From: an uncultured Acidobacteriota bacterium
GTDB taxonomy: Bacteria > Acidobacteriota > Thermoanaerobaculia > Multivoradales > UBA5704
Reading direction: 5' to 3'
Assembly: GCA_963770895.1 (NCBI GenBank)
Contig: CAVYRF010000002.1
Coordinates: 3,360,001 to 3,424,000 of the forward strand
Length of the DNA: 64,000 bases
Under the pieces are notes generated by a model. That model was not told the origin of the DNA. It saw only the letters and a list, made by a program, of their open reading frames with translations, and searched no databases. Both the position numbers and the translations under genes were made by a program. This document shows, one piece after another, positions 15,384 through 63,519 of the stretch (the stretch's first letter is position 1; each line of letters opens with the position of its first letter).

Positions 15384-16809
15384 GGGGATGTCCCACTTTC
15401 CGTTGAAAGTCGACGGCGAAGTTGGCGGTAGTTTCACGCAGTGAGCGTCTCCTGGTCAAGCTTTTCTGGGTAAGAAGGGGCAGACCGAGCGAGGGCGATG
15501 CTGAGAGCCGGCAGGTCGCGGTAGCCCTTGATGCGACGGAAGCGCTTCTCGGCTTCGAGGATCCCGGTGACCGCCCAGCGCAAGACCATCGTCCCTCCTC
15601 GCCAGCGCTTGACACGGCGAGCCAGGTGCTTCAGAGCACTGTTGAGATTCTCGATTGGATTGGTCGAGCGCAAACTGCGAGTGAGCGTCGCCGACATGCG
15701 CAGGCCGATGATTGTTAAGGTTTCATCGAGACCTTCCCGCAACGACGACGCTGCGCCTGGATGCGCCTCTTCCAGTTGCTCTGCCAAGCCCACGAGGCGC
15801 TTCCGGGCTTGCTCGACAGAGCCAGCGGCCCAAGCCTTCCGGATCACCGTTCGCACCCACGCGTGCTTACTATCAGGTAAATGATCGATCACGTTGCGCA
15901 TCTTGTGGATCTGGCAGCGTTGGATCAATGCCCAGCCCGCAAAAGTCTTTCTAATCGCGGCACGCACGCCCTTGCCGCCGTCCACAACGAACAGGCGCAT
16001 CCGCTCTACCAGCAGGCCGCGCTCGATCAAGTTGCGCAGCAACGCCCGCCCTGCCTGCTCGCTCTCGCTGCTGCCTTCCACCACCCCCAGCACTCGCTTC
16101 GACCCATCCGCCTCGATGCCCATCGCCAACAGCAGCACATGGTCGCCAAGCACCGTGCCGTCGATCATGAGCACCGGGAAGTCCCTGCCTTCGAGGGACT
16201 CGGACAGCCGCTGGGTGATCTGCTGGCGGGTCCGCGCGACGAAGCGCCGGGACACGCTCGAACGGCTGACCGAGCACGAGTTCCGGCTCTCGGGCAGGGC
16301 CTCCAGGCTCCGGGCATACTTGCGCGTCGATACGCCCACGATCATCTGCTCGAGAGCTCGCTCGTCGAGAGGATCTTCCTGTCGCATCGCGACCCAACTC
16401 GGCAGCGCCAACTCCTCGCCCCCGACGGTGCGCACCCGCGGCCGGCCCAGCTGCACCTTGCGGCCTCCGAGGACCACGCGACCCTGCTCATGTCCGTAGC
16501 GATACGCCGTGCGCTGCGCTCCCTGCCGGCTGCCGGCAGGACCCACCAGCGCCTCGCGGTCCTCCTCCAGCATCGCCTCGAACACCGCGAGCCCCGTCGC
16601 CATCACCAGCTCCCGTAGCGCCTCTCCGGCTCGCACCAGCACGCCCCCCACGCCTACTCGCCGACAGGCTCCCTCGTGCCCAGCAGTTGCCTCTCTCCCT
16701 CTCGCCGTGGCACTCTTCTTCATGACGGTGACCCTCCTTTAGTTGGCACCCCCATGCTCTATGGGGGCGAGGATCGCCGTCAACTTTCAACGGATTCTGG
16801 GACAAGGCC
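15384..16809 (-). mobile_element. Complete IS256-family insertion sequence (1426 bp)
   Basis: 36-bp imperfect inverted repeats (GGGGATGTCCCACTTTCCGTTGAAAGTCGACGGCGA / GGCCTTGTCCCAGAATCCGTTGAAAGTTGACGGCGA); 9-bp TSD GCTGGCGGC at 15375-15383 and 16810-16818. Confidence 0.95.
15434..16723 (-). CDS. IS256-family DDE transposase
   Basis: GVSTRK, LMIDG, VVDGGKG, QRCQIHK and STNPIENLN motifs. Confidence 0.95.
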   Translation of the reverse strand: MKKSATARGREATAGHEGACRRVGVGGVLVRAGEALRELVMATGLAVFEAMLEEDREALVGPAGSRQGAQRTAYRYGHEQGRVVLGGRKVQLGRPRVRTVGGEELALPSWVAMRQEDPLDERALEQMIVGVSTRKYARSLEALPESRNSCSVSRSSVSRRFVARTRQQITQRLSESLEGRDFPVLMIDGTVLGDHVLLLAMGIEADGSKRVLGVVEGSSESEQAGRALLRNLIERGLLVERMRLFVVDGGKGVRAAIRKTFAGWALIQRCQIHKMRNVIDHLPDSKHAWVRTVIRKAWAAGSVEQARKRLVGLAEQLEEAHPGAASSLREGLDETLTIIGLRMSATLTRSLRSTNPIENLNSALKHLARRVKRWRGGTMVLRWAVTGILEAEKRFRRIKGYRDLPALSIALARSAPSYPEKLDQETLTA

Positions 16810-22103: not shown

Positions 22104-24890
22104 TCACCCCCCAGCTCGCACTGAGCCGGTGGCGGGCCGTGCCGCTGTTGCCAGCACCTTGAGGTGAGCGAGAAGCGGCGCGGTCGGGACCAGCGCCCCT
22201 TCGGCCTGCTTCAGGATGGTCGCCGCGAGCGCTGCGCCCGCGGCGCGTTGGGCAGCGGTGCCGCGCGCCAGGAGCTCGGCGCGCGGCACCTTGCCCACGG
22301 CGCAGAGGATGTGCCCGGCACCATAGTACTGCTGCTCGGTCTGCTCGGCGCGCAGCAAGCCTTGGAGCGCCTCCGTGGTGTGTCCGAGTGCCGCCTCGGC
22401 GAGAGCGGCTTGGCGCTCTACCTCGATGCCCAGCCACGACTTTGTCACCGGCACCAGCGGCCGGATGCTGGCCATCTCCGCCAGCGCCCGCGCCGCATCG
22501 CCCTTGCGCAGGTACCACATCGCTTGCACGAGGCGCGCCTTGAGCGTATCCGGTGCGTTCTCACGGCGGGTGGCGAGGCGCATCTTGAGCGCCATTGCGA
22601 CCTGCGGGCGGGCGGCGTCGAGCTCGCCGGCGCGCACCAGCGACAGGGCGTAGTTGACGCGGATGACCGCCAGGCTGCCTTCCGAGGAGGATCTGGCGAG
22701 CGCGGCAAGCGACCGTTCCCAGGCGCGCGTGGCGGCGCGTTCATCGCCGACCGCGTCTTCGGCCATCGCCAGGTTGTGAAGCATGATGCCGACCGGTGCC
22801 GAGGACGGGCCCATCCTGCGGGTCGCGATCGAAATCGCCTGTTGATAGAGCGGGATGGCCTCGCGCCCGCGTCCCGCGAAGTCCAGGCCGCGCGCCAGCT
22901 CCGCCATCGCCCAGGCGGTCGCGAAGGAGTCGGCGCCCTTGATGCGACGGTTGGCGGAGAGCGCGGCGCGGAATTCCGCCACGGCCTCGGGGAAGCGCTG
23001 CGCGTCGTCGAGGGCCCGGCCGATGTTCTCGTACGTCTCGATGTAATCATTGTCATTCTTGCCATGCAGCTGGCCGTACATTCCCTGGCCGCGGCGCAGC
23101 GTCGCGATCGCATCGTCGTGCCAGCCTTCCTTCGAAAGCGTCATGCCGAGCACATCGAGAGCATCCGCCAGGTCGTTGCTCGGGCCGCCGCGCGCCAGGA
23201 TCGCCACGTTGCGTCGCCGCAGCGCCTCCGCTTCGCGGGTCCGATCGGTCAGATGAAGGATGGCGGCGAGCTCTTCGCGCGCCGTGACCGCCAGCATCCC
23301 CTCCGCTCCGGCATGCCGTTCGACGAGTGTCAGCGCCTCGCGTGCGTCGGCCTCGCCGCTGGCCGGATCGAACGTCACATCGCGCAGGTCCGACAGGTTT
23401 ATCAAGAGGCGGGCCAGGGCGAGCGGCCGGTCCAGGCTGCGCTCGATCGCGACGGCGCGGAGCAGGTGATCGCGCGCCTTGACGGTATTGCCCATGTTCT
23501 CCTGGACCTGGCCGAGTGCGCCGTGAATGTCGGAGAGCGCCGCGGCCTGTCCCTTGAGCTCGGTCTCGAGACGCGCTTCGGCCTGGGCGATCAGCGTCGC
23601 GGTCGGCACCGGGGCGACCTCGCCAGCCTCGTGCGAGGCGCGGAAGATCGACACCAGGAAGTCGCTGACTTGGCGCGATGCGGCTTCGGCCCGCGTGGCG
23701 CGGTTGCGGTCGCTCTCCGCCTTGGACGCGGCGGCGCGGGCGCTCCGTTCGGCGGTGCGTGCCAGGTGCGACTCGAACATCGCCTGGGCGGCGGCCGCGG
23801 AGACGGTCGCGGCGAGGAGCAGGGCGGCCGCCGCCGCCGTCCGGCGGCGGGCGAGGAGCTTGCGCAGCACGTAGCCGCGCCGCCCCTGCCATTCGGCAAT
23901 GGGAAGGCGGTCGCGGAAGCGTCGGATGTCGGCGGTCAGCGAGTCGACCGTGGCATAGCGCTCGGCCGGGTCGCGACGCGTGGCACGGGCGATGATCGCC
24001 GCGAGCTCGCGCCGGCGCAGCGCAGACAGGTGTTGCCGGCCGGCCGCCGCCGCGAGGAGCTCGGCCAGGAGCACGCCGAGGCTGTAGATGTCGCTCGCCG
24101 TGGAGAGCGCTCCGCGCTCGATCTGCTCGGGACTGGCGTAGCGCGGCGTAAAGGCGTGCGGCGGCGGGGCGGCGGGCAAGGCGGGCTCGGCGCCCGCCTC
24201 GACGCGGCCGAGCAGGTGGGCGATGCCGAAGTCGAGCAGCACCGGGCGGCCGCCGGCGTCGATCAGCAGATTCGACGGCTTGAGGTCACAGTGGATGACC
24301 AGCTGGCGATGGGCGAACGCCACCGCGTCGCAGGCGGTGAGAAAGAGATCGAGGATCGCCTCGACACCGAGCTGCGCGTGGCGGCAGTGCACGTCGATGT
24401 GATTTCCCTCGATGTACTCCATGACCAGGTAGGGCCGCTGGTTCGGTGTCGCGCCGCCGTCGAGCAGGCGGGCGATGTTGGGGTGGGTGAGGTGGGCGAG
24501 GAGCTGCCGCTCGCGGGTGAAGAGCGCCAACGCCTGCGGGCTCGGCACGCCCTGCAAGATCTTGAGAGCCGCGCGCTGCTCGAAGTGGCCGTCGCTACGT
24601 TCGGCCAGGAAGACGCGCGCCATGCCGCCACGGCCGATCTCGGCCGCGATGCGCCAAACCCCCAGGGTGTCGCCCGGCGCGATCGCGTGCGTCGCCGCTT
24701 CGTCGAGCACCGAGGCGATGGGTTGCCAGGCGAGCGTCGTACCAGTGGTCACGGCGTGGAGTGCCAGCACCTCGGCGATCACCCCTGCATCGTCGGTGAG
24801 CCCCGCCAGGGCCGCGGCGCGCTGGTCGGGCGGCAGCTCGGCGACCACGGCGAAGAGGCGCTTGATGGTTGCGTACTGCTCGGGGCTCAT
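22104..24890 (-). CDS. ECF-associated Ser/Thr kinase with TM and TPR repeats
   Basis: IGRGGMARVF, HCDLKPSN, DFGIA and FTPRYASPEQ; TPR-like helices; ATGA overlap with the sigma factor stop. Confidence 0.9.
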   Translation of the reverse strand: MSPEQYATIKRLFAVVAELPPDQRAAALAGLTDDAGVIAEVLALHAVTTGTTLAWQPIASVLDEAATHAIAPGDTLGVWRIAAEIGRGGMARVFLAERSDGHFEQRAALKILQGVPSPQALALFTRERQLLAHLTHPNIARLLDGGATPNQRPYLVMEYIEGNHIDVHCRHAQLGVEAILDLFLTACDAVAFAHRQLVIHCDLKPSNLLIDAGGRPVLLDFGIAHLLGRVEAGAEPALPAAPPPHAFTPRYASPEQIERGALSTASDIYSLGVLLAELLAAAAGRQHLSALRRRELAAIIARATRRDPAERYATVDSLTADIRRFRDRLPIAEWQGRRGYVLRKLLARRRTAAAAALLLAATVSAAAAQAMFESHLARTAERSARAAASKAESDRNRATRAEAASRQVSDFLVSIFRASHEAGEVAPVPTATLIAQAEARLETELKGQAAALSDIHGALGQVQENMGNTVKARDHLLRAVAIERSLDRPLALARLLINLSDLRDVTFDPASGEADAREALTLVERHAGAEGMLAVTAREELAAILHLTDRTREAEALRRRNVAILARGGPSNDLADALDVLGMTLSKEGWHDDAIATLRRGQGMYGQLHGKNDNDYIETYENIGRALDDAQRFPEAVAEFRAALSANRRIKGADSFATAWAMAELARGLDFAGRGREAIPLYQQAISIATRRMGPSSAPVGIMLHNLAMAEDAVGDERAATRAWERSLAALARSSSEGSLAVIRVNYALSLVRAGELDAARPQVAMALKMRLATRRENAPDTLKARLVQAMWYLRKGDAARALAEMASIRPLVPVTKSWLGIEVERQAALAEAALGHTTEALQGLLRAEQTEQQYYGAGHILCAVGKVPRAELLARGTAAQRAAGAALAATILKQAEGALVPTAPLLAHLKVLATAARPATGSVRAGG

Positions 24891-25576
24891 GTCGATCGCG
24901 GCCTGCGCGGTTGCGACGGGTGGAGAGCATGCCGTTGGAAACCTGGCGGCTGGTGCTGCGGCGGCGCATGCCGCCGCGGCGGGTCCCTGCGCGCCGGGGC
25001 GCCGAGCGCCTTGTTGAGCCAGGCGCGGGCGAAGCGGAGCTCGCGGTCGACCGTCGGCACCGAGATGTCGAGGAGGCTCGCGATCTCCTCGCGGTCCAGG
25101 CCGCCGAAGCACTTGAGATGCATGATCTGGCCGCAGCGCGCATCGAGCCGCGCCAGGCGTTCGAGCGCGTCATCGATGACCAGCAAGTCGACCGCCGCCG
25201 CGCCGCTGCCGCCAGCCGCCTCCGCCACGTCCGCCAGGGTGACGCGCAGGGCGCCACCGCCGCGCTTTCCGGCGGCACGCGCCCGCGCGTGATCGACCAG
25301 GATCGAGCGGATGGCGAGCGACAGCGTGGCAAAGAAGTGCGCTCGGTTCTGGAACTCGGCGGGCGACGGCAGGAGGCCCAACAGAGCCTCGTGCAGCACC
25401 TCGGTCGGCGAGAGCGTGACCGGGTGGCTGCCGCGGCTCACTCGCCGGGCGGCCACCGCCTTGAGCTGGTCGTAGACCTGGTCGATGAGCTCGCCGAACG
25501 CAGTGCCGCTTCCCTGGCGCCAGGAGCGGAGGAGGGCGGTGAGCGGCGGCGGCTCGGGGGGCGGGGTTGGAGGCAT
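24887..25576 (-). CDS. ECF-type RNA polymerase sigma factor (kinase-associated type)
   Basis: LTALLRSW, TLSPTEVLHEA, NRAHFF, ILVDHARAR.AGKRGG, FGGL..EEIA and TVDRELRFARAWL. Confidence 0.92.
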   Translation of the reverse strand: MPPTPPPEPPPLTALLRSWRQGSGTAFGELIDQVYDQLKAVAARRVSRGSHPVTLSPTEVLHEALLGLLPSPAEFQNRAHFFATLSLAIRSILVDHARARAAGKRGGGALRVTLADVAEAAGGSGAAAVDLLVIDDALERLARLDARCGQIMHLKCFGGLDREEIASLLDISVPTVDRELRFARAWLNKALGAPARRDPPRRHAPPQHQPPGFQRHALHPSQPRRPRST

Positions 25577-26364: not shown

Positions 26365-26618
26365 AGGGCGCCCGCCAGGGCTGAGCCGGAGCCTGCACGT
26401 CTCATCGAGAACCAGGAGGAGCGCTCCGCGGCACTCCACCGCGCACCGCGGAGAGCGGCGAGCCCAACACCGATCTGGGCAGTCGGCGGCCACTTTTACT
26501 CGGCGCCGAACCCACCTCCAGCGTCGCCCTTTCGGCCAATCCCTCCAATGCTTGAGTGAGCGGCGCGGCTGCGCCGGCGCAGGTGCGCCGCGGTGGGTTA
26601 GGCCGCTTTGCGGCGCGG

Positions 26619-28970
26619 TCAGGGGCCCGGCGGCGGCTCGACGGCGGCCAGCCAGGTGGTGAAAGCGGCGCCGAAGTCCAGGTGGCCAGCTGGCAGCGGC
26701 AGCCATTGGGCGAAGTCGGGGAAGGCGCGCAGGCCGTCGAGGAAGAGCGGCACGCCGGTGGGCTGCCTGCCGGCTTCCGACCCTCCCGCGATGCGGGCCA
26801 GCGCCGCGGTGTCGGGCAGGTCGGGGAAGTACGCGGTCAGATTTGCCACCACCTCGGGCAGCGCCTGCCGGCGGCGGCGCCGAACTAGCTCGAAGGCGGC
26901 CAGGCAGGCGCCGATCGGATCCACCCACTTGATGGACAGCGCCTGATCAAGCCGGGCGTCACTGACGTCAGTTTCGAGGCGTCGCCGGCGGCGGAAGGCG
27001 CGGCTGAGCTGGGCCAGGAAGCGAAGATCCTGCAGGGCGTTTCTGCCGGCAAGCATCTGTTGCATCCCCGTGGGCAGAGAGCCCAGAAGATGTCCCAGCG
27101 GCAGCAGAAACTGGCTGACGCGCGGCACGTGCTCTTCGTCCAGGGTCAAGACGATAAGAGTGCCGCGGTTCGGTATGGCGAAACTCGCGACCGTCGAGGG
27201 CGCCATGTCGTCCACCTGCAGCGAGACCAGCATGCCACCCGATCGCGGAGCGAAGACGGCGTGGCGAATGCCTGGCATCGCCGTGGGCTCCGCCGCGGAC
27301 TGCCAGACCAGTGAGGCTGTCGCGCCGGCGATCTGGGGTGAGGCTTCCGGTGTCGCGGGCACCTTCAGTTCGGTGACGGCCACTTTGAGCGTGGTGGCCG
27401 GCTGCTCGAAGCCCGCCAACACATAGAGGGGAGAGCCGCCCTGTGCAATCTGCGAAAAATTGCCCAGCGGCAAGGTGGCGATCTTGCTGTAGTCGCCCTG
27501 CGAACCGAGAATGCGGCCGCCGCCCAACAGGGTGAGCCACAGATCTAGGTCCGGATCCGCGATCGGGCCGCCGAGCGATTCGGAAAAGTCGAGCCCGTCC
27601 TGCGCCGCAGGCAGCAGGCGCGCGATCGACTGATGAGGGATGCTATCTCCCCACGCCGCAGGGTTCAAGACCGTACGCTCTCCCGGCTGCAGATAGATCT
27701 CCCGGCGCAGCAGGGCCGGCCCGTGCGGGGTGTTAAACGTCACCGCGTAGGTGCCGGGTGTGAGCGCCGCAGTGACGGACCTCTCGAAGAACGACTTGAT
27801 GCCGGTTTCGACGTTGTGCAAGGCGACCTCGCTCCCCTGCGGCACGAGCAGATCCACCTGTGCTGCCAGGCTCTCGCTGCTGGCGCCGCCGATCTCCCCA
27901 TCGCCGTCCCATCCGCCGCCGAGCAGAGGCTTGAATTCGACGGTCGCGTCCTCGAACAGCTCGACGGGCGCCTCGCCGGCCGGCAGCACCTGCGTCGCGG
28001 GCAGGTTGAGGCGCACTGTGTAGAAATCCGGCTCCAAGGCGAGCACCAGCCGCTGCTGGTCGAACGCGTGCGCCGTTTCTGCAGGCGAGGTCGAGCGTTT
28101 CAAAAACAAGGTGCCGGTGAGGCCCGTGTGGGCGGACGCCAGATTGACGGTCAAATTGCACAATGGCACGGGTTTGATCTTGGCGAGAATCGCATCCGCT
28201 TCGCCGTCCTCGCCTGCAACCCAGTGAGTGATGGGTTGCCTTGACGCTAGACGCTCCTTAAGGAATCGGCGCAGGGACTCGTAATTGACCACCATCGCAT
28301 CGGCCATGGGCAGTTGCCAGATCTTGGCTTTACCTGCACCCCTGAGGCCCGCTTCGAGGGTCGAGGCGAAGGGGCCACCCACCAGCGCCGGGGCTCCCCG
28401 TACCGTGGATTGCAGGACGTAGATCGTGGACTCTTCAGAATCTTGCGCATCTTGCTGCAGCTGGAGCCCTACTTGGACGGAGTTCGGCTTGAGGATATTC
28501 CGGCAGGCGTCGATGAAGTGGAAATGATGACCGATGCCCATGTTCGTCTGTAGCCAGCCGACGATCTCGTCAAGCTTGAAGCAGCTGGCGCTCGACACCT
28601 TGCCATTCTTGAAATCGGCAGTGACCAGGACATCCGAGCGGGAGCCCGGTGTGCCCTCAAAGCAAAATCCGTGGCCGCTGAAATAGAAGAACAGCTCTTC
28701 GGTCATGTTGCGTCCTGCGGTCTTCAGGTCTTCCAGAGCCGTGATGAGATCCTCGCGGGAAGCGCCGCGACCGCCGGCAACCTGCGGTTCGGAGCAGAAC
28801 AGAAGCTGCGTCTCAGGGGGGTTCCTTCCCTGATCGGATTGCCACCTCTGTTCCAGCCAGGCGCGGAATCTGTTGGCGGCCGCGAGCGTTCCTGGCAGGA
28901 TATCCGCCAGCCCTCCCTGGTCGATGCGTGGGTACCGTTCGATGGCAATGATGAGGGCGCGGGAAGTCAT
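26619..28970 (-). CDS. Caspase-family (peptidase C14) protein with a long uncharacterised C-terminal region
   Basis: RALIIAIERY, YFSGHG (His) and FIDACRN (Cys) dyad; two beta-rich repeats (LEPDFYTVRL, LTPGTYAVTF); helical C-terminus. Confidence 0.88.
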   Translation of the reverse strand: MTSRALIIAIERYPRIDQGGLADILPGTLAAANRFRAWLEQRWQSDQGRNPPETQLLFCSEPQVAGGRGASREDLITALEDLKTAGRNMTEELFFYFSGHGFCFEGTPGSRSDVLVTADFKNGKVSSASCFKLDEIVGWLQTNMGIGHHFHFIDACRNILKPNSVQVGLQLQQDAQDSEESTIYVLQSTVRGAPALVGGPFASTLEAGLRGAGKAKIWQLPMADAMVVNYESLRRFLKERLASRQPITHWVAGEDGEADAILAKIKPVPLCNLTVNLASAHTGLTGTLFLKRSTSPAETAHAFDQQRLVLALEPDFYTVRLNLPATQVLPAGEAPVELFEDATVEFKPLLGGGWDGDGEIGGASSESLAAQVDLLVPQGSEVALHNVETGIKSFFERSVTAALTPGTYAVTFNTPHGPALLRREIYLQPGERTVLNPAAWGDSIPHQSIARLLPAAQDGLDFSESLGGPIADPDLDLWLTLLGGGRILGSQGDYSKIATLPLGNFSQIAQGGSPLYVLAGFEQPATTLKVAVTELKVPATPEASPQIAGATASLVWQSAAEPTAMPGIRHAVFAPRSGGMLVSLQVDDMAPSTVASFAIPNRGTLIVLTLDEEHVPRVSQFLLPLGHLLGSLPTGMQQMLAGRNALQDLRFLAQLSRAFRRRRRLETDVSDARLDQALSIKWVDPIGACLAAFELVRRRRRQALPEVVANLTAYFPDLPDTAALARIAGGSEAGRQPTGVPLFLDGLRAFPDFAQWLPLPAGHLDFGAAFTTWLAAVEPPPGP

Positions 28971-28994
28971 GATGGTTCTCTGTCAACTCGCCAG

Positions 28995-29957
28995 TCAGGC
29001 TGGCGCGGAGGCGAACGGGCGCAAGGCATCGGCATCGAGCGCCTCGTTGCGGTACATGAAGAAGCCCGCGCGGTGAATGCCTACCGCGCGGCCCGATTCC
29101 AGCGAGAAGATCGGCGATCCCGAGCTGCCCCCCGTGGTCGAACAATCATGAAACAGATCAGGGGCTTGGGTACCGTCTAGCGACTCTCCCAAGGCGGCAC
29201 GTTTGACGCCAAACCTTCCCTGGTAGACGGCCGACAAGAAGAGCGGATTGCGACCTGCATCCGCGGCAGGGTAACCGACCGCGACGACGCGGTGCCCCGC
29301 TTCGACGGCTGCCGGCGCGATGTCGACGACGGGCCGGCCGAGCTTACGTACGGCGAGCAGGACGATGTCGAGATGCGGATGGATCGCGGCCACATCCTCG
29401 ATCTCGACGGTATGCTCAGGTGCGTCAGTCGATTTTTCCTCGCGTTGAAAGAGTACGCGGGCCTGCCCGGGTTCGAGCTTTTCAGCGCCGAAGCTCAGGT
29501 CGTCCAAGACGTGCCGGTTGGTGGCGAGCACTCCGTCCTGCACCAGGAAACCGCTACCGACCTGGTTGCCGTCCGCGCTCTCGATCCGGCCGATGGAGTA
29601 AAGCAGCGGCTGGATTTTCTTGCGGAAGGCGCTCCACAAGTCCTTGAGCTCGGGCGGCTGCAGATTGTGTTCCGGCGTGTCCGGCAGGTCGTCCAGCATG
29701 CCTCCATGGGAGAGCGGTGCCGGACGCAGGACGCGAATGACGATTTCCAGGGCGGCCAACTGGGTGGCGGAAGGCGCTACGCCGTTGCGCAGCTGGTCCC
29801 ATGCGGCCTGCGCGGCCACTTCGCTGGCGGGAATCGTGACCGGTCCGATGATGGCGCGCGTTTTCTTGAGCGCCTGGGAAATCTGGTGCGGTCCCAGCGC
29901 CCGATCGGCGCGGGCGAGAAGAAGCTGCTCCCTGGTGGTGAGCGGCAGGGCGTTCAC
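28995..29957 (-). CDS. Cytoplasmic trypsin-like serine protease
   Basis: VGSGFLV, ATNRHV (His), HLDIVLL (Asp) and HDCSTTGGSSGSP (Ser); GTG start overlaps the upstream stop (GTGA); no signal peptide. Confidence 0.9.
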   Translation of the reverse strand: MNALPLTTREQLLLARADRALGPHQISQALKKTRAIIGPVTIPASEVAAQAAWDQLRNGVAPSATQLAALEIVIRVLRPAPLSHGGMLDDLPDTPEHNLQPPELKDLWSAFRKKIQPLLYSIGRIESADGNQVGSGFLVQDGVLATNRHVLDDLSFGAEKLEPGQARVLFQREEKSTDAPEHTVEIEDVAAIHPHLDIVLLAVRKLGRPVVDIAPAAVEAGHRVVAVGYPAADAGRNPLFLSAVYQGRFGVKRAALGESLDGTQAPDLFHDCSTTGGSSGSPIFSLESGRAVGIHRAGFFMYRNEALDADALRPFASAPA

Positions 29958-31252
29958 GCCACCAACTCGCGCTCGTAGATGACTCGCCCCTCGGGGTCGA
30001 GGACCTGCTCGGCGAGCCGCGGTCCGTCGAGCGTGAGGATGGCATAACCGTGCGGCAGGAACTTCTCCGCTTCGTCGCCGAGATAGGGGTTGCGGCCTTC
30101 GAGCACGAGCGCGGCCGGGATCGGGTTGCCGTTGCCGTCCAGCTTCGCCGCGGCTCGTCGCCAGTCCGCCGCGGTCTGATCCGGCGCGGCCGGCAGCTCT
30201 TTGGTTGTGGCCCGGCTTTCGGGCATCCCGCCGTGGCCGATGCAGCGCGCCCAGATGCCGGATCGCGGGTCGCATTCCTCGTAGAGGCAGCAGCGATGCT
30301 CGTGTCCCCAATACCAGGCGAAGATGCGCCGGCTGGCGAGGATCTCGGCGAAGCGCGGGTGTTGCCACAGCTTGTCGCCCTGGGCGTCAAACTGCGAGTA
30401 GAGCTGGTGATGGGAGAAGAGCACGACCTTGCGGTTTTCCGCCTGCGCGAGAATCGCTTGCAGCCAGGCCACCTGTTCGTCGTCGATCGCATGATCCAGG
30501 TACGCCACATCGAGCCCCACCAGGGTCCAGTGATCGTTCTGCAGGGCGAAATAGCTCGCATCCTGGTGAAAGGCTGCCAGGGTGTCGTCGAAGTAGGCGT
30601 AGCCGCCGGAGTACATGTCGTGGTTCGAGTTGAGCGCCCGCTGCAGCGCGTCATCGCGGGCCGGCCACAGATCGAGGAAGCGCTCCCGAACCTCCTTCCT
30701 GGTGCCGGCGTAATAGACATCTCCCAGGTGGAGCAGCAGGGCGAACGGATTCTTGTCGTCGCGGATGGCCCGTGCGATCTGCGGCGCGCCGTAGAGTCCC
30801 GTCCCCCAATCGCCGACGACCACGATACGCCCGAAGTTGGGAAAGGCCGCAGGTGCGGACCGGCTCGGCCGCAGCAGAGGGTGCTTGCGCGGGTTCCTGA
30901 TCTTAGCCCAGGCGACCGTCGCCCACCCTGGCCAGTCATGGGTGTCGAACTTTGCCTCCATGCCGCCGCCGGGGAGGGGTTCGAGGCGCAGTTGGGCCGC
31001 CTCGCCGGAAGCGAGGAGGCTCTGCAGGCGCGATGACGGCCCGTGCTGGGCGGTGACCAGAACGGCGTCGCTGCCCGCCCGGCGTTCCGCCTTGCCAAGT
31101 TCGGTCAGGATGGAGCCGAGGGTCGCCATGGCGACGGCGGCTTCGAGGCCGTCGTCGGCCGCTCTTTCGACGACAACCGATTCCGCGCTCGTGAGAGCTT
31201 TTTTCACCTCGCGGAAAGTGACGATGACAGGTGCCGAAGATGAGTCTGACAT
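29954..31252 (-). CDS. Calcineurin-like metallophosphoesterase with ~135-aa N-terminal extension
   Basis: GDWG, LGDVYY, SNHD, FSHH and WGHEH metal-binding motifs; TAAGG RBS. Confidence 0.9.
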   Translation of the reverse strand: MSDSSSAPVIVTFREVKKALTSAESVVVERAADDGLEAAVAMATLGSILTELGKAERRAGSDAVLVTAQHGPSSRLQSLLASGEAAQLRLEPLPGGGMEAKFDTHDWPGWATVAWAKIRNPRKHPLLRPSRSAPAAFPNFGRIVVVGDWGTGLYGAPQIARAIRDDKNPFALLLHLGDVYYAGTRKEVRERFLDLWPARDDALQRALNSNHDMYSGGYAYFDDTLAAFHQDASYFALQNDHWTLVGLDVAYLDHAIDDEQVAWLQAILAQAENRKVVLFSHHQLYSQFDAQGDKLWQHPRFAEILASRRIFAWYWGHEHRCCLYEECDPRSGIWARCIGHGGMPESRATTKELPAAPDQTAADWRRAAAKLDGNGNPIPAALVLEGRNPYLGDEAEKFLPHGYAILTLDGPRLAEQVLDPEGRVIYERELVA

Positions 31253-31261
31253 CGCAGTACC

Positions 31262-31615
31262 TTAGCGGAGGCTCGCGTTCTGCGCAACGATATTGCCCGA
31301 GACCAATGGATGGCGATGCCCGTTCGCGTGCCCGGACTTCAGCGGGCGAGGGCGGGGTAGCTGTCGAACCAGCGGCGGGGGCGGATGACGATGGCCGGCG
31401 CGAAGCTCCACGCCTGTGCTCAAGGGGCCGTAGGCGGCGGAGAGGATGCCGTCGCTGTGGCCGCCGGCGAAACGCAGGCGGGCTTCGATGTCGGCTTTGC
31501 CCGAGGTGACGGCGAGGTTGTCGATGGCGACGTAGCCGTTGCCGAGCGTCAGCTCGCCGCTCGCGTCGATGGGGTGGAGGTCGAGCAGGGGTCGAGCCAG
31601 GAGAGAGGCGGCCAC
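31262..31615 (-). pseudogene. Possible gene fragment (beta-rich, AsmA-like C-terminus)
   Basis: Short coding-like stretch [24 protein letters not shown]..; no clear start; tail looks non-coding. Confidence 0.3.
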
Positions 31616-38029: not shown

Positions 38030-38044
38030 CGGCGGGTCTTGATC

Positions 38045-63519
<25,475 letters not shown>

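What the first reader, a model, noticed from the sequence alone, without database searches (positions are those of the whole stretch)
26619..31252. Candidate undescribed proteolytic-cascade system: metallophosphoesterase - trypsin - caspase operon
Seen: three co-oriented genes with a GTGA overlap and a 24-bp gap. All lack signal peptides and all have intact catalytic motifs (GDWG/GDVYY/NHD/HH/GHEH; H-D-S triad; HG/DAC dyad). The block looks less GC-rich than its neighbours and is flanked by gene debris. Known: caspase-like and trypsin-like proteases activate effectors in bacterial immunity (gasdermin, Avs, CRISPR type III-linked proteases), and calcineurin-like phosphoesterases occur as effectors in conflict systems. 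Inference: the large caspase C-terminal region is the sensor, and the caspase and/or trypsin unmasks the phosphoesterase as a toxic nucleotide or nucleic-acid effector. No gasdermin, STAND ATPase or cyclase is present, so it fits no named system I know.
Basis: partly seen in the sequence, partly recalled or inferred. Interest (0 to 1): 0.85.

Follow-up and report, generated by a model that had tools for sequence, protein, structure and literature searches.

The report
Two-protease phosphoesterase conflict operon

Summary
The three genes are real, intact and arranged as described: metallophosphoesterase (MPE), then trypsin-like protease, then caspase-like protease, on the minus strand, with a GTGA overlap and a 24-nt gap.

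MPE, trypsin and caspase lie in the same order and tight spacing in 35 of 74 loci fetched with the caspase, from record titles of seven phyla. No fourth gene is shared. All catalytic residues are invariant.

The operon is very patchy. It was not found in 0 of 9 congeners, 0 of 400 other genomes of its own phylum, and 1 of 300 in a family that holds it.

The MPE belongs to a large family that is repeatedly fused to, or sits beside, proteases of at least five families. On plasmids it sits beside TIR genes and caspase or CHAT genes. A related pair joins the caspase to a trypsin fused to a nuclease.

My reading: the proteases gate a latent MPE effector. The order caspase, trypsin, MPE is inferred, not shown.

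A protease-linked "MPE" module is already listed, uncharacterised, in a 2025 preprint. This is therefore a new variant of a known kind, not a new category. The MPE fold resembles purple acid phosphatases, not Mre11-type nucleases. There is no experimental evidence.

The parts
29954..31252 (-). Metallophosphoesterase gene (432 aa, P0001), the predicted latent effector
   Evidence: ORF and translation. PF00149 at residues 142-321. All MPE metal and catalytic motifs invariant in 31 homologues. AF2 model pLDDT 85.5, pTM 0.88. Best PDB folds are purple acid phosphatases (1war, E 4.9e-13).
30848..31252 (-). MPE N-terminal region, residues 1-135. It holds a helical hairpin (H13-33, H36-59) and the family-specific segment around E99, F102, D106 and W110. 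Candidate pro- or regulatory segment.
   Evidence: Secondary structure and lower pLDDT (49-83). Invariant E99, F102, D106. Plasmid and viral relatives align only from residue ~47-138 onward. The regulatory role is inference.
28995..29957 (-). Trypsin-like serine protease gene (320 aa, P0002). Its GTG start overlaps the MPE stop (GTGA).
   Evidence: PF13365 at residues 134-294. H149, D197, S279 invariant in 32 homologues. The start position is supported by aligned N-termini in A3.
29643..29957 (-). Trypsin N-terminal domain and linker, residues 1-105. The conserved helical region has an invariant R78-P79 and is followed by a linker of variable length. Candidate pro-domain or adaptor.
   Evidence: Alignment A3. 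No Pfam hit. The same N-domain is present in the planctomycete caspase-linked trypsin-nuclease fusions (tblastn from residue 13). The function is inferred.
26619..28970 (-). Caspase-like (Peptidase_C14) protease gene (783 aa, P0003), 24 nt after the trypsin gene
   Evidence: 67 mostly full-length homologues. H100 and C156 invariant. AF2 model pLDDT 85.0, pTM 0.83.
28173..28970 (-). Caspase catalytic domain, residues 1-266
   Evidence: VIA-align Z 19.3 to the MALT1 caspase domain (3v4o_A, rmsd 3.0, 205 aligned); caspases and metacaspases follow. Foldseek finds Yca1, MALT1 and GSU0716.
27666..28166 (-). Two beta-sandwich (Ig/CnaB-like) domains, residues ~269-435, the most variable part of the protein
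   Evidence: DSSP of the model. Residues 269-351 match Ig/CnaB-like chains at Z about 8, and 365-478 match at Z 8.7 and 7.8. Indel-rich columns in A1.
26622..27653 (-). Caspase C-terminal region, residues 440-783 (helices, a beta-rich domain 515-624, a helical domain 626-756). Candidate sensor or scaffold of unknown fold.
   Evidence: Model. Strongly conserved motifs in A1. No hit in the local Pfam copy. PF27295 (named 'Y4kD_C' by the Atlas) is precomputed on 3 of 67 homologues, and an Atlas cluster carrying it scores 0.86. The fold was not tested alone (note).
26560..26591 (.). GC-rich palindrome 28-59 nt downstream of the caspase stop codon. Possible transcription end; weak evidence.
   Evidence: Inverted repeat I4, 20-nt arms, 90% complementary. 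Not called a terminator by the consensus scan, as there is no T-run.

Best explanation
This is a horizontally acquired, cytoplasmic, three-gene biological-conflict module, most likely anti-phage abortive infection. Proteolysis gates a latent phosphoesterase.

The components, as I read them:
- The caspase-like protein has a MALT1/metacaspase-like domain, two Ig-like domains and a conserved ~340-residue C-terminal region. I take it to be the sensing and initiating protease.
- The trypsin-like protease carries a conserved ~105-residue N-terminal extension. I take it to be a second-tier protease.
- The purple-acid-phosphatase-like metallophosphoesterase is the effector. It is held inactive until cut, and then hydrolyses an abundant phosphoester, with a nucleotide or phospholipid more likely than DNA. 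The result is arrest or death of the cell.

Shown here: gene integrity, invariant active sites, strict co-conservation of the three genes, patchy distribution, recurrent fusion or adjacency of this MPE family with proteases, and swapping of the effector.

Inferred: that the MPE is cleaved, the order caspase then trypsin then MPE, the sensor role of the caspase C-terminus, the substrate, and the immune role itself.
For: 1. Conserved unit. tblastn finds MPE, trypsin and caspase in this order with near-zero spacing in 35 of 74 loci fetched with the caspase profile. The exceptions among close relatives of the caspase are contig ends (L011, L024, L028) or an IS-disrupted locus (L009). In all-against-all ORF clustering of 37 loci, only these three genes are shared widely: 37, 37 and 35 loci. 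The next real flank cluster reaches 5 loci.

2. Co-inheritance. Pairwise distances of the three proteins correlate at r 0.86-0.92 over 24 loci.

3. Active enzymes. All catalytic residues are invariant.

4. Accessory and mobile character.
- The caspase family was found in 0 of 9 same-genus genomes. One of 40 relatives gave a weak hit.
- It was found in 0 of 400 other genomes of the phylum, and in 1 of 300 (partial) in the family of a Bradyrhizobium that carries it.
- Record titles span seven phyla.
- GC is 5 points below the genome.
- IS elements disrupt two copies.

5. The MPE family is protease-linked. There are 1007 cluster representatives at E<=1e-30. I scanned 9 long hits and 8 carried extra domains:
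- Trypsin_2-MPE (twice)
- S41-MPE
- MPE-S8
- M23-MPE
- abhydrolase-TPR-S-Trypsin_2-MPE
- WD40-Trypsin_2-FGE-sulfatase-MPE
- response regulator-GAF-MPE

6. Immune-type contexts of MPE relatives on plasmids.
- R. rhizogenes pC6.5d: 2 TIR genes, a caspase and the MPE, beside a SIR2 gene and IS110/IS256.
- Rhodopseudomonas pBAL398.3: TIR, TIR, caspase, a 99-aa gene, MPE.
- A. tumefaciens pTi: TIR, MPE, CHAT.

7. Effector swapping. In planctomycete loci a caspase is followed by a protein with the same trypsin N-domain, two trypsin domains and Endonuclease_NS (L039). In L042 it is followed by a two-trypsin protein.

8. Precedent.
- Trypsin-gated MBL pro-nucleases and the caspase-nuclease system Canu (PMC12799240, abstract and section 8 read).
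- MPE listed among protease-associated effector modules (Evans et al. 2025 preprint, passages and section 4 read).

9. The trypsin scores against defence-linked trypsin models: PDC-M35A, RT-Protease_XI and LmuA.
Against: - There is no experiment of any kind, and no RNA data (one search lists no RNA holder).
- Defence-island signal around the triad is weak. Among 107 nearest flank ORFs of 33 loci, few match PADLOC models: RT-protease-type trypsin 4, and PD-T4-6, mad, ThsB-like TIR and caspase one each. The Pfam list is mostly ordinary genes. Many of these loci are kin, so the counts are not independent.
- The window's own neighbours are ordinary: kinase, PhnB-like, S10 peptidase, O-methyltransferase, NRPS.
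- In the 24-row concatenated tree, Acidobacteriota and Pseudomonadota each form one group. Much of the spread could therefore be vertical inheritance with loss rather than frequent transfer.
- I found no conserved basic residue or other obvious cleavage site in the MPE inter-domain linker or the trypsin linker.
- The caspase C-terminal region is strongly conserved rather than diversifying, which is unusual for a sensor of variable phage proteins.
- The MPE fold is closest to phosphomonoesterases and small-molecule diesterases. How it would be toxic is unknown.
- One Ralstonia relative of the MPE sits beside cytochrome c genes with no protease annotated nearby. Not every family member is protease-linked.
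Confidence: 0.55

Rival explanations
1. The proteases are the killing effectors, cleaving many cell proteins as in type IV Thoeris or PCaspase. The MPE is a regulator that degrades or processes a nucleotide signal, for example an ADP-ribose-derived one, to set a threshold or reset the system.
For: MPE relatives sit with TIR genes and caspases in three plasmid loci. TIR proteins make nucleotide signals, and the type IV Thoeris caspase cleaves indiscriminately (passages). The structural neighbours of the MPE include nucleotide and cyclic-nucleotide phosphodiesterases: SMPDL3A and Rv0805. From recall, not a call: some metallophosphoesterases hydrolyse ADP-ribose and cADPR.
Against: The triad encodes no TIR, cyclase or other signal-making enzyme. 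The family's recurrent partners are proteases of unrelated folds, often fused in one chain without any nucleotide-signalling domain. In the planctomycete variant, a nuclease fused to the trypsin takes the place of the separate MPE gene, which is an effector-type swap.
Confidence: 0.15
2. This is a non-immune regulated-proteolysis pathway of soil bacteria, such as a stress response, programmed cell death in development, or protein and phosphate turnover. It happens to be an accessory operon.
For: The neighbourhoods are mostly ordinary genes. The carriers are soil-type lineages by record title. The tree is largely congruent with phyla. The conserved C-terminal region could bind an endogenous ligand.
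Against: Extreme patchiness is hard to square with a physiological pathway: 0 of 400 in the phylum and 1 of 300 in a carrier family. IS disruptions occur in two copies. The MPE family has plasmid contexts with TIR, SIR2 and toxin-antitoxin genes. The module shows the fusion and effector swapping typical of conflict systems.
Confidence: 0.15
3. The three genes are unrelated neighbours, or a secreted or inter-bacterial toxin set, with no functional coupling between them.
For: Purple-acid-phosphatase-like enzymes and proteases are often secreted scavenging enzymes (general knowledge, not from a call).
Against: Order and spacing are the same in 35 loci across phyla. Distances are correlated. There are gene fusions of the MPE with proteases. 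No signal peptide or membrane segment is seen by hydropathy. No secretion-system gene is among the conserved neighbours.
Confidence: 0.03

Closest known systems
Protease-associated 'MPE' effector module, listed by Evans et al. 2025 (bioRxiv 10.1101/2025.11.14.688446) citing Krishnan et al. 2020 NAR
   Same: A metallophosphoesterase-like enzyme genetically linked to a defence-type protease. [quoted passage not shown]
   Different: The preprint gives no characterisation of MPE. I could not read Krishnan et al. (not held), and supplements are closed. I therefore cannot tell whether their MPE is this family, or whether the stand-alone MPE-trypsin-caspase triad is shown there. Here no ABC ATPase, STAND or other known sensor is present.
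Trypsin-MBL gated pro-nuclease modules (Hachiman, AVAST and others; Tuck et al. 2025, PMC12799240; Evans et al. 2025)
   Same: The effector gene lies just upstream of a trypsin-like protease gene. The effector is a metallo-hydrolase proposed or shown to be a zymogen. The trypsin here scores against the same defence trypsin models, RT-Protease_XI and LmuA.
   Different: The effector here is a calcineurin-like MPE, not an MBL. The trypsin is not fused to a sensor but carries a private N-domain. A caspase gene follows.
Canu (CanABC caspase-nuclease system, Tuck et al. 2025)
   Same: A MALT1-like caspase with an Ig-like domain activates a separate latent hydrolase. It is a three-gene operon (section 8 read). 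The caspase here is also MALT1-like with Ig-like domains.
   Different: There is no MBL nuclease and no CanB-like gene here. A serine protease sits between the caspase and the effector, and the gene order differs. Sequence relatedness to CanA was not tested, as I held no CanA sequence.
Type III-B CRISPR SAVED-CHAT to PCaspase cascade (bioRxiv 10.1101/2023.06.23.546230; search listing and abstract start only)
   Same: A two-tier cascade in bacterial immunity in which one protease activates a second.
   Different: That system uses two clan-CD proteases triggered by a cyclic oligoadenylate. Here a Cys protease is paired with a Ser protease, there is no SAVED or CRISPR context, and the terminal effector is a phosphoesterase.
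Type IV Thoeris (TIR + caspase-like protease; Rousset et al. 2025)
   Same: A caspase-like protease acts as an immune component. MPE relatives sit in TIR + caspase loci on plasmids.
   Different: There is no TIR gene in or next to the triad. The caspase here carries a ~500-residue C-terminal extension. MPE is not mentioned in the preprint's main text.
Mammalian purple acid phosphatase (TRAP)
   Same: It is the best structural match of the MPE catalytic domain (1war E 4.9e-13). PDB entry 2bq8 is titled as having an 'inhibitory conformation of the repression loop'. From recall: TRAP is activated by proteolytic removal of that loop.
   Different: Sequence identity is 18-19%, and TRAP is a secreted or lysosomal eukaryotic enzyme. 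This is an analogy of regulation only, not homology of the regulatory element.

Membership tests
Calcineurin-like metallophosphoesterase superfamily (PF00149) | Conserved metal-binding motifs (GD, GDxxY/GDxxDR-type, GNH[DE], H, GH, GHxH) on the alpha/beta sandwich fold | tested here: met
   PF00149 at 38.8 bits against a 21.5 cutoff. GDWG, HLGDVYY, NSNH[DE], SHHQ and WGHEH are invariant in 31 sequences. The fold matches PAPs, GpdQ and SMPDL3A.
Mre11/SbcD-type MPE nucleases | Closest structural or sequence similarity to Mre11/SbcD nuclease domains | tested here: inconclusive
   No Mre11/SbcD chain appears among the Foldseek rows listed; the top hits are PAPs, SMPDL3A/B, GpdQ, ASMase and Rv0805. 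NCBIfam gives only weak PDE-type hits. Absence from a list does not exclude nuclease activity.
Chymotrypsin-fold serine proteases (Trypsin_2, PF13365) | His-Asp-Ser triad in the conserved motifs | tested here: met
   PF13365 at 69.7 bits against a 27.6 cutoff. H149, D197, S279 invariant.
Caspase/metacaspase/paracaspase (Peptidase_C14, clan CD) | His-Cys dyad on the caspase-hemoglobinase fold | tested here: met
   PF00656 at 25.8 bits against a 21.4 cutoff. SGHG H100 and DAC C156 invariant. Z 19.3 to the MALT1 caspase domain.
Protease-gated effector modules of prokaryotic immunity (MBL, a/b-hydrolase, Pepco, EACC1, gasdermin, MPE) | Effector gene conserved next to or fused with a protease | tested here: met
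   35 syntenic loci. MPE fusions to S1, S8, S41 and M23 proteases. Adjacency to C14 and CHAT proteases.
Protease-gated effector modules of prokaryotic immunity | [quoted passage not shown] | not testable with these tools
   This needs biochemistry. No conserved cleavage motif could be identified in A2 or A3.
Protease-gated effector modules of prokaryotic immunity | Confers phage defence or abortive infection | not testable with these tools
   There is no experiment. Context evidence is indirect.
Canu (CanABC) | Caspase paired with an MBL-fold gated nuclease (CanC) and with CanB | tested here: not met
   No Lactamase_B/MBL domain is found in any of the three proteins or the neighbours. The effector is PF00149.
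Type IV Thoeris | A TIR-domain protein encoded with the caspase-like effector | tested here: not met
   There is no TIR among the window's neighbours or among genes shared by the 37 loci. One of 107 flank ORFs had a ThsB-like hit.
Bacterial gasdermin systems | A gasdermin gene next to the protease | tested here: not met
   Pfam scans of the operon and neighbours show none.
Avs / STAND-protease systems | A STAND NTPase fused to or beside the protease | tested here: not met
   There is no NTPase domain in the three proteins. The Avs1b NCBIfam hit is 11.4 bits against a 1500 cutoff.
PADLOC candidate PDC-M35 | A match of the operon's proteins to all PDC-M35 component models | tested here: not met
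   Only the trypsin hits PDC-M35A, weakly (4.7e-11, 40.9 bits). The MPE has no PADLOC hit.

The most novel reading that the evidence does not exclude
A self-contained three-gene immune system built as a heterotypic two-step protease cascade. A MALT1-like caspase has a private C-terminal domain, of a fold not yet matched to anything, that senses infection. The caspase cuts the pro-region of a trypsin-like protease. That protease in turn unmasks a purple-acid-phosphatase-like enzyme, which kills the cell by destroying nucleotides or membrane phospholipids. This would be the first Cys-to-Ser protease relay, and the first phosphoesterase death effector of this fold, shown in bacterial immunity.
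Probability: 0.3. Interest if true: 0.8.

Novelty: new variant of a known kind. Interest (0 to 1): 0.62.

Why it matters
Protease-gated latent effectors have become a central theme of bacterial immunity over the last two years (trypsin-MBL, Canu, Pepco, EACC1). The MPE module is on the published list but remains uncharacterised.

This operon offers a compact, sensor-included version: three genes and 4.6 kb, with no ATPase, TIR or CRISPR partner. It could be cloned and tested directly. It would address three questions:
- What does a phosphoesterase effector of this fold destroy?
- Can bacterial immune proteases of different clans be wired in series, as in animal cascades?
- What does the conserved caspase C-terminal region recognise?

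The family-wide link of this MPE to at least five protease families suggests a general regulatory principle worth biochemical study.

Tried and rejected
- **Shared adaptor domain.** hhalign of the MPE N-region, the trypsin N-domain and the caspase C-terminal parts against each other gave probabilities of 0.1-1.2%. No similarity was found, so I dropped the idea of homotypic adaptor domains.

- **Complex prediction.** Full-length caspase (A1) with trypsin residues 1-128 (A3) gave no verdict (score 0.00, controls not run). This is not evidence either way.

- **Insertion-site mapping.** I searched 6.2 kb of the left flank as DNA in 5 same-genus genomes. Only multicopy kinase-domain paralogues at 65-69% identity were found, with no synteny, so the island borders could not be set. 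No tRNA gene lies in the window. No convincing flanking direct repeats were found.

- **Promoter and terminator scan.** It found 0 promoter-like sites and 2 terminator-like sites inside genes, fewer than in shuffles. This is uninformative for a 70% GC genome.

- **Expression.** No RNA holder is listed. Four soil-metagenome DNA runs of one study hold small shares (0.07-0.15) of the stretch. I did not lay the reads.

- **Plasmids and phages.** The caspase has no plasmid match and the MPE has no match in the phage collection. In viral contigs the caspase profile gave only two short weak hits, and the triad was not found.

- **Caspase C-terminal fold.** Foldseek and VIA-align lists are filled by the caspase and Ig-like domains, so residues ~480-783 were barely tested. 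The Atlas nearest clusters are unnamed, and the PF27295 'Y4kD_C' cluster scores only 0.86, which is a lead only. My local Pfam copy lacks PF27295.

- **Trypsin domains in the fusions.** The trypsin domains of the Trypsin-MPE fusions are only 24-26% identical to this trypsin and lack its N-domain. The fusions therefore show a family-level MPE-protease link, not a fusion of these very genes.

- **Literature.** Searches, and in-paper searches, found no description of an MPE-trypsin-caspase operon. They may contain it.

Full report
**What is there**

On the minus strand of the window lie three tightly packed ORFs:
- a 432-aa calcineurin-like metallophosphoesterase (MPE, 29954-31252)
- a 320-aa trypsin-like serine protease (28995-29957)
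- a 783-aa caspase-like cysteine protease (26619-28970)

I read the junctions directly. The MPE stop and the trypsin GTG start overlap as GTGA. Exactly 24 nt separate the trypsin stop from the caspase ATG.

Pfam places Metallophos at MPE residues 142-321, Trypsin_2 at trypsin residues 134-294 and Peptidase_C14 at caspase residues 3-193. This leaves three regions with no family:
- about 135 N-terminal residues of the MPE
- about 105-125 N-terminal residues of the trypsin
- about 500 C-terminal residues of the caspase

Simple hydropathy shows no signal-like or membrane segment. GC3 values of 0.78-0.83 mark all three as real genes in a 70.7% GC genome.

The triad is 65.65% GC, the 8.7th percentile of same-sized windows of the genome. 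The lower GC continues into neighbouring genes.

The left neighbour is a full-length PhnB-like gene. The right neighbour is a Gly-rich ORF with relatives in related genomes. Only a 117-aa ORF just upstream of the MPE is of unclear status.

**Is the trio a unit?**

The caspase has 67 mostly full-length homologues in the large protein collection. A profile scan of one genome per species returned 74 loci.

tblastn with the three window proteins finds MPE, trypsin and caspase in this order in 35 of the 74 loci. Gene lengths are 417-443, 306-337 and 730-847 aa, with spacers of a few bases or overlaps.

Among loci whose caspase is a close, full-length relative, the exceptions are as follows:
- contig ends (L011, L024, L028)
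- L009, where a DDE transposase sits between the trypsin and a truncated caspase
- L022, where an IS interrupts the MPE

The remaining loci hold more distant caspases without the partners.

In all-against-all clustering of ORFs from 37 loci, only these three genes are widely shared (37, 37 and 35 loci). The next cluster of real flank genes reaches 5 loci. Larger clusters were antisense ORFs inside the three genes. There is no fourth component.

Pairwise distances of the three proteins correlate at r = 0.86-0.92 over 24 complete loci. This fits inheritance as one block, although related genomes inflate such numbers.

Record titles place the carriers in seven phyla: Pseudomonadota (Bradyrhizobium, Afipia, Pseudolabrys and others), Acidobacteriota, Gemmatimonadota, Planctomycetota, Verrucomicrobiota, Nitrospirota and Actinomycetota. 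Most are metagenome bins, which can hold stray contigs.

**Distribution**

The caspase family was not found in any of 9 same-genus genomes. It gave one weak hit among 40 relatives. It was found in none of 400 other genomes sampled from the window's phylum. Only 1 of 300 other genomes (a partial hit) in the family of a carrying Bradyrhizobium has it.

A quick concatenated tree of 24 loci puts the window's copy with the alphaproteobacterial and Gemmatimonadaceae copies, apart from a single acidobacterial group. Together with the lower GC, this points to horizontal acquisition by the window's lineage.

Within Acidobacteriota and Alphaproteobacteria the tree does not demand frequent transfer.

No tRNA gene, flanking repeat or synteny break could be used to define an island.

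**The three proteins**

All catalytic residues are invariant:
- MPE: D148, H175/D178, N210/H211, H281, H317/H319, in 31 sequences
- Trypsin: H149/D197/S279, in 32 sequences
- Caspase: H100/C156, in 25 sequences

*MPE.* The model (pLDDT 85.5, pTM 0.88) is closest to mammalian purple acid phosphatases (1war, E 4.9e-13). Plant PAPs, SMPDL3A/B, GpdQ, acid sphingomyelinase and Rv0805 follow. No Mre11/SbcD chain is in the listed rows. This favours a small phosphoester substrate (nucleotide, phospholipid head group or phosphoprotein) over DNA, though it does not exclude a nuclease.

The MPE N-terminal region is a lower-confidence helical hairpin followed by a family-specific segment with invariant E99, F102 and D106.

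*Caspase.* The model (pLDDT 85.0, pTM 0.83) has these parts:
- a MALT1/metacaspase-like catalytic domain (Z 19.3 to 3v4o_A)
- two Ig/CnaB-like beta sandwiches (Z about 8)
- a helical, beta-rich and helical C-terminal part whose fold was not effectively tested

That C-terminal part is strongly conserved. It carries the precomputed Pfam label PF27295 in 3 of 67 homologues. The Atlas names that family Y4kD_C (score 0.86, a lead only).

*Trypsin.* The N-domain is a conserved helical region with an invariant R78-P79. A linker of variable length precedes the protease core.

The three unassigned regions show no similarity to each other.

**What the wider MPE family says**

A profile of the MPE finds 3120 cluster representatives at E<=1e-3 and 1007 at E<=1e-30 among 1.84 billion. 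Many of the best hits are longer proteins. I scanned nine of them:
- two are Trypsin_2-MPE
- one is Peptidase_S41-MPE
- one is MPE-Peptidase_S8
- one is Peptidase_M23-MPE
- one is abhydrolase-TPR-S-Trypsin_2-MPE
- one is WD40-Trypsin_2-FGE-sulfatase-MPE
- one is response regulator-GAF-MPE
- one showed only the MPE

The trypsin domains of these fusions are distant from the window's trypsin. The link is therefore between this MPE family and proteases in general.

On plasmids, MPE relatives (30-36% identity, E down to 8e-40) lie in these settings:
- in R. rhizogenes pC6.5d, directly after a 331-aa caspase, beside two TIR genes, a SIR2 gene and two IS elements
- in Rhodopseudomonas pBAL398.3, in the row TIR, TIR, caspase, 99-aa gene, MPE, followed by a toxin-antitoxin-like pair
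- in an A. tumefaciens Ti plasmid, in the row TIR, MPE, CHAT protease, with two more CHAT genes

A Ralstonia relative beside cytochrome c genes shows that not all members are so placed.

**Effector swapping**

In two planctomycete loci a shorter caspase (444-459 aa) is followed by a long second protein. In L039 that protein begins with the same N-domain as the window's trypsin and continues with two trypsin domains and a DNA/RNA non-specific endonuclease. In L042 it carries two trypsin domains only.

The caspase plus N-domain-trypsin pair thus recurs with a different terminal hydrolase. This is the behaviour of a transducer core with exchangeable effectors.

**Mechanism I consider most likely**

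By analogy with the trypsin-gated MBL pro-nucleases and the caspase-nuclease system Canu (Tuck et al. 2025, PMC12799240; abstract and section 8 read), I read the MPE as a latent effector released by limited proteolysis. Evans et al. 2025 (passages and section 4 read) place MPE among protease-associated effector modules, which fits this reading.

The caspase carries the only large unassigned region, so it is the best candidate for the sensing and initiating component. The trypsin, translationally coupled to the MPE, is the best candidate for the protease that cuts the MPE.

The title of PDB entry 2bq8 mentions a "repression loop" of purple acid phosphatase. From recall, that enzyme is activated by proteolysis, which offers a structural analogy only.

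Everything in this section beyond the gene-level associations is inference. I found no conserved cleavage motif. I could not inspect model coordinates for active-site occlusion. There is no expression or functional data.

**Rivals**

The main rival is that the proteases are the killing effectors and the MPE trims a nucleotide signal. The TIR contexts prompt this idea. The lack of any signal-making enzyme in the triad, and the protease fusions, weaken it.

A non-immune accessory proteolysis pathway cannot be excluded. Defence-gene enrichment around the triad is weak: few of 107 flank ORFs from 33 partly related loci hit PADLOC models. The window's own neighbours are ordinary.

Chance adjacency is excluded by the synteny.

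**Comparison with the known, and novelty**

The locus fails the defining features of these systems:
- Canu: no MBL
- type IV Thoeris: no TIR
- gasdermin systems: no gasdermin
- Avs: no STAND NTPase
- PADLOC's PDC-M35: only a weak trypsin hit

It works like, and probably belongs to, the broad class of protease-gated effector modules, in which an MPE module is already listed but uncharacterised.

My literature searches and in-paper searches found no description of the MPE-trypsin-caspase triad. Two key computational papers are not held, and supplements are closed, so prior depiction cannot be excluded.

I therefore rate it a new variant of a known kind. It is interesting because it is compact, contains its own sensor, pairs two proteases of different clans, and carries an effector fold whose lethal chemistry is unknown.

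**Verdict**

- Confidence that this is a protease-gated MPE conflict module: about 0.55.
- Confidence in the specific caspase, trypsin, MPE relay: about 0.3.
- Interest: 0.62.

Noticed in passing
L007:3424-5526(-), and equivalents in L008 and L030: In the Afipia and Bradyrhizobium loci, a 700-aa protein fusing Trypsin_2 to a DNA/RNA non-specific endonuclease lies immediately upstream of the triad, transcribed divergently. It may be a second, single-gene protease-nuclease conflict element.
   Followed up: partly
L039:178-4586 and L042:7956-11441: Planctomycete loci with a 444-459-aa caspase followed by a long second protein. In L039 this is a 1025-aa protein (trypsin N-domain, two trypsin domains, Endonuclease_NS). 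In L042 it is a 696-aa two-trypsin protein. This is a related two-gene architecture.
   Followed up: partly
L077 (R. rhizogenes pC6.5d), L087 (Rhodopseudomonas pBAL398.3), L086 (A. tumefaciens pTiCFBP5877): Plasmid loci combining TIR genes, a caspase or CHAT protease and an MPE of this family look like type IV Thoeris-like systems with an added MPE. MPE is not mentioned in the main text of the two Thoeris preprints I searched.
   Followed up: partly
L091:3970-5082(+): A T4-like viral contig (Gp23 major capsid protein, S77 prohead protease) carries a 370-aa MPE homologue. It is 39% identical to the window's MPE over residues 47-432 and is divergent from the prohead protease gene. It could be a phage decoy or counter-defence, or an unrelated phage phosphoesterase.
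   Followed up: no
L022:5013-6098(-) and L009:7330-8007(+): DDE_3-type transposase genes interrupt the MPE (L022, where the trypsin is also frameshifted) or separate the trypsin from a truncated caspase (L009, where the MPE is missing). These are decayed copies of the operon.
   Followed up: partly
L010:8001-10193(+): A Xanthobacteraceae bin carries a second, lone full-length caspase copy (37% identity to the window's). It lies 2.3 kb from a complete triad in the opposite orientation.
   Followed up: no
L023:7064-10379, and equivalents in L025, L027, L033, L035: In Pyrinomonadaceae-type loci, a conserved unknown ~720-738-aa protein follows the triad in four of the five loci (L015 also carries it, on the other side). 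A ~315-aa DUF676-type alpha/beta hydrolase follows it in four of the five. This is possibly another protease-type effector pair, lineage-restricted.
   Followed up: partly
G435 (L051) C1:1391781-1394041: In the Planctomycetaceae chromosome, the caspase reads as two ORFs of 575 and 221 aa. This is either a frameshift or a natural split.
   Followed up: no
window 31262-31615(-): A 117-aa ORF with coding-like GC3 ends 9 nt before the MPE start. It has no Pfam hit and no counterpart in the other loci. It could be a remnant of another gene.
   Followed up: partly
window 15434-16723(-); 38039-49948(+); 51034-63519(+): A Mutator-family transposase lies about 10 kb from the triad. Two giant ORFs of 3969 and 4161 aa lie to the right. 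I did not scan them; they are presumably NRPS/PKS genes.
   Followed up: no
window 22104-25112(-): A Ser/Thr protein kinase with TPR repeats (1002 aa) sits next to the locus. Its kinase domain has many paralogues in same-genus genomes.
   Followed up: no
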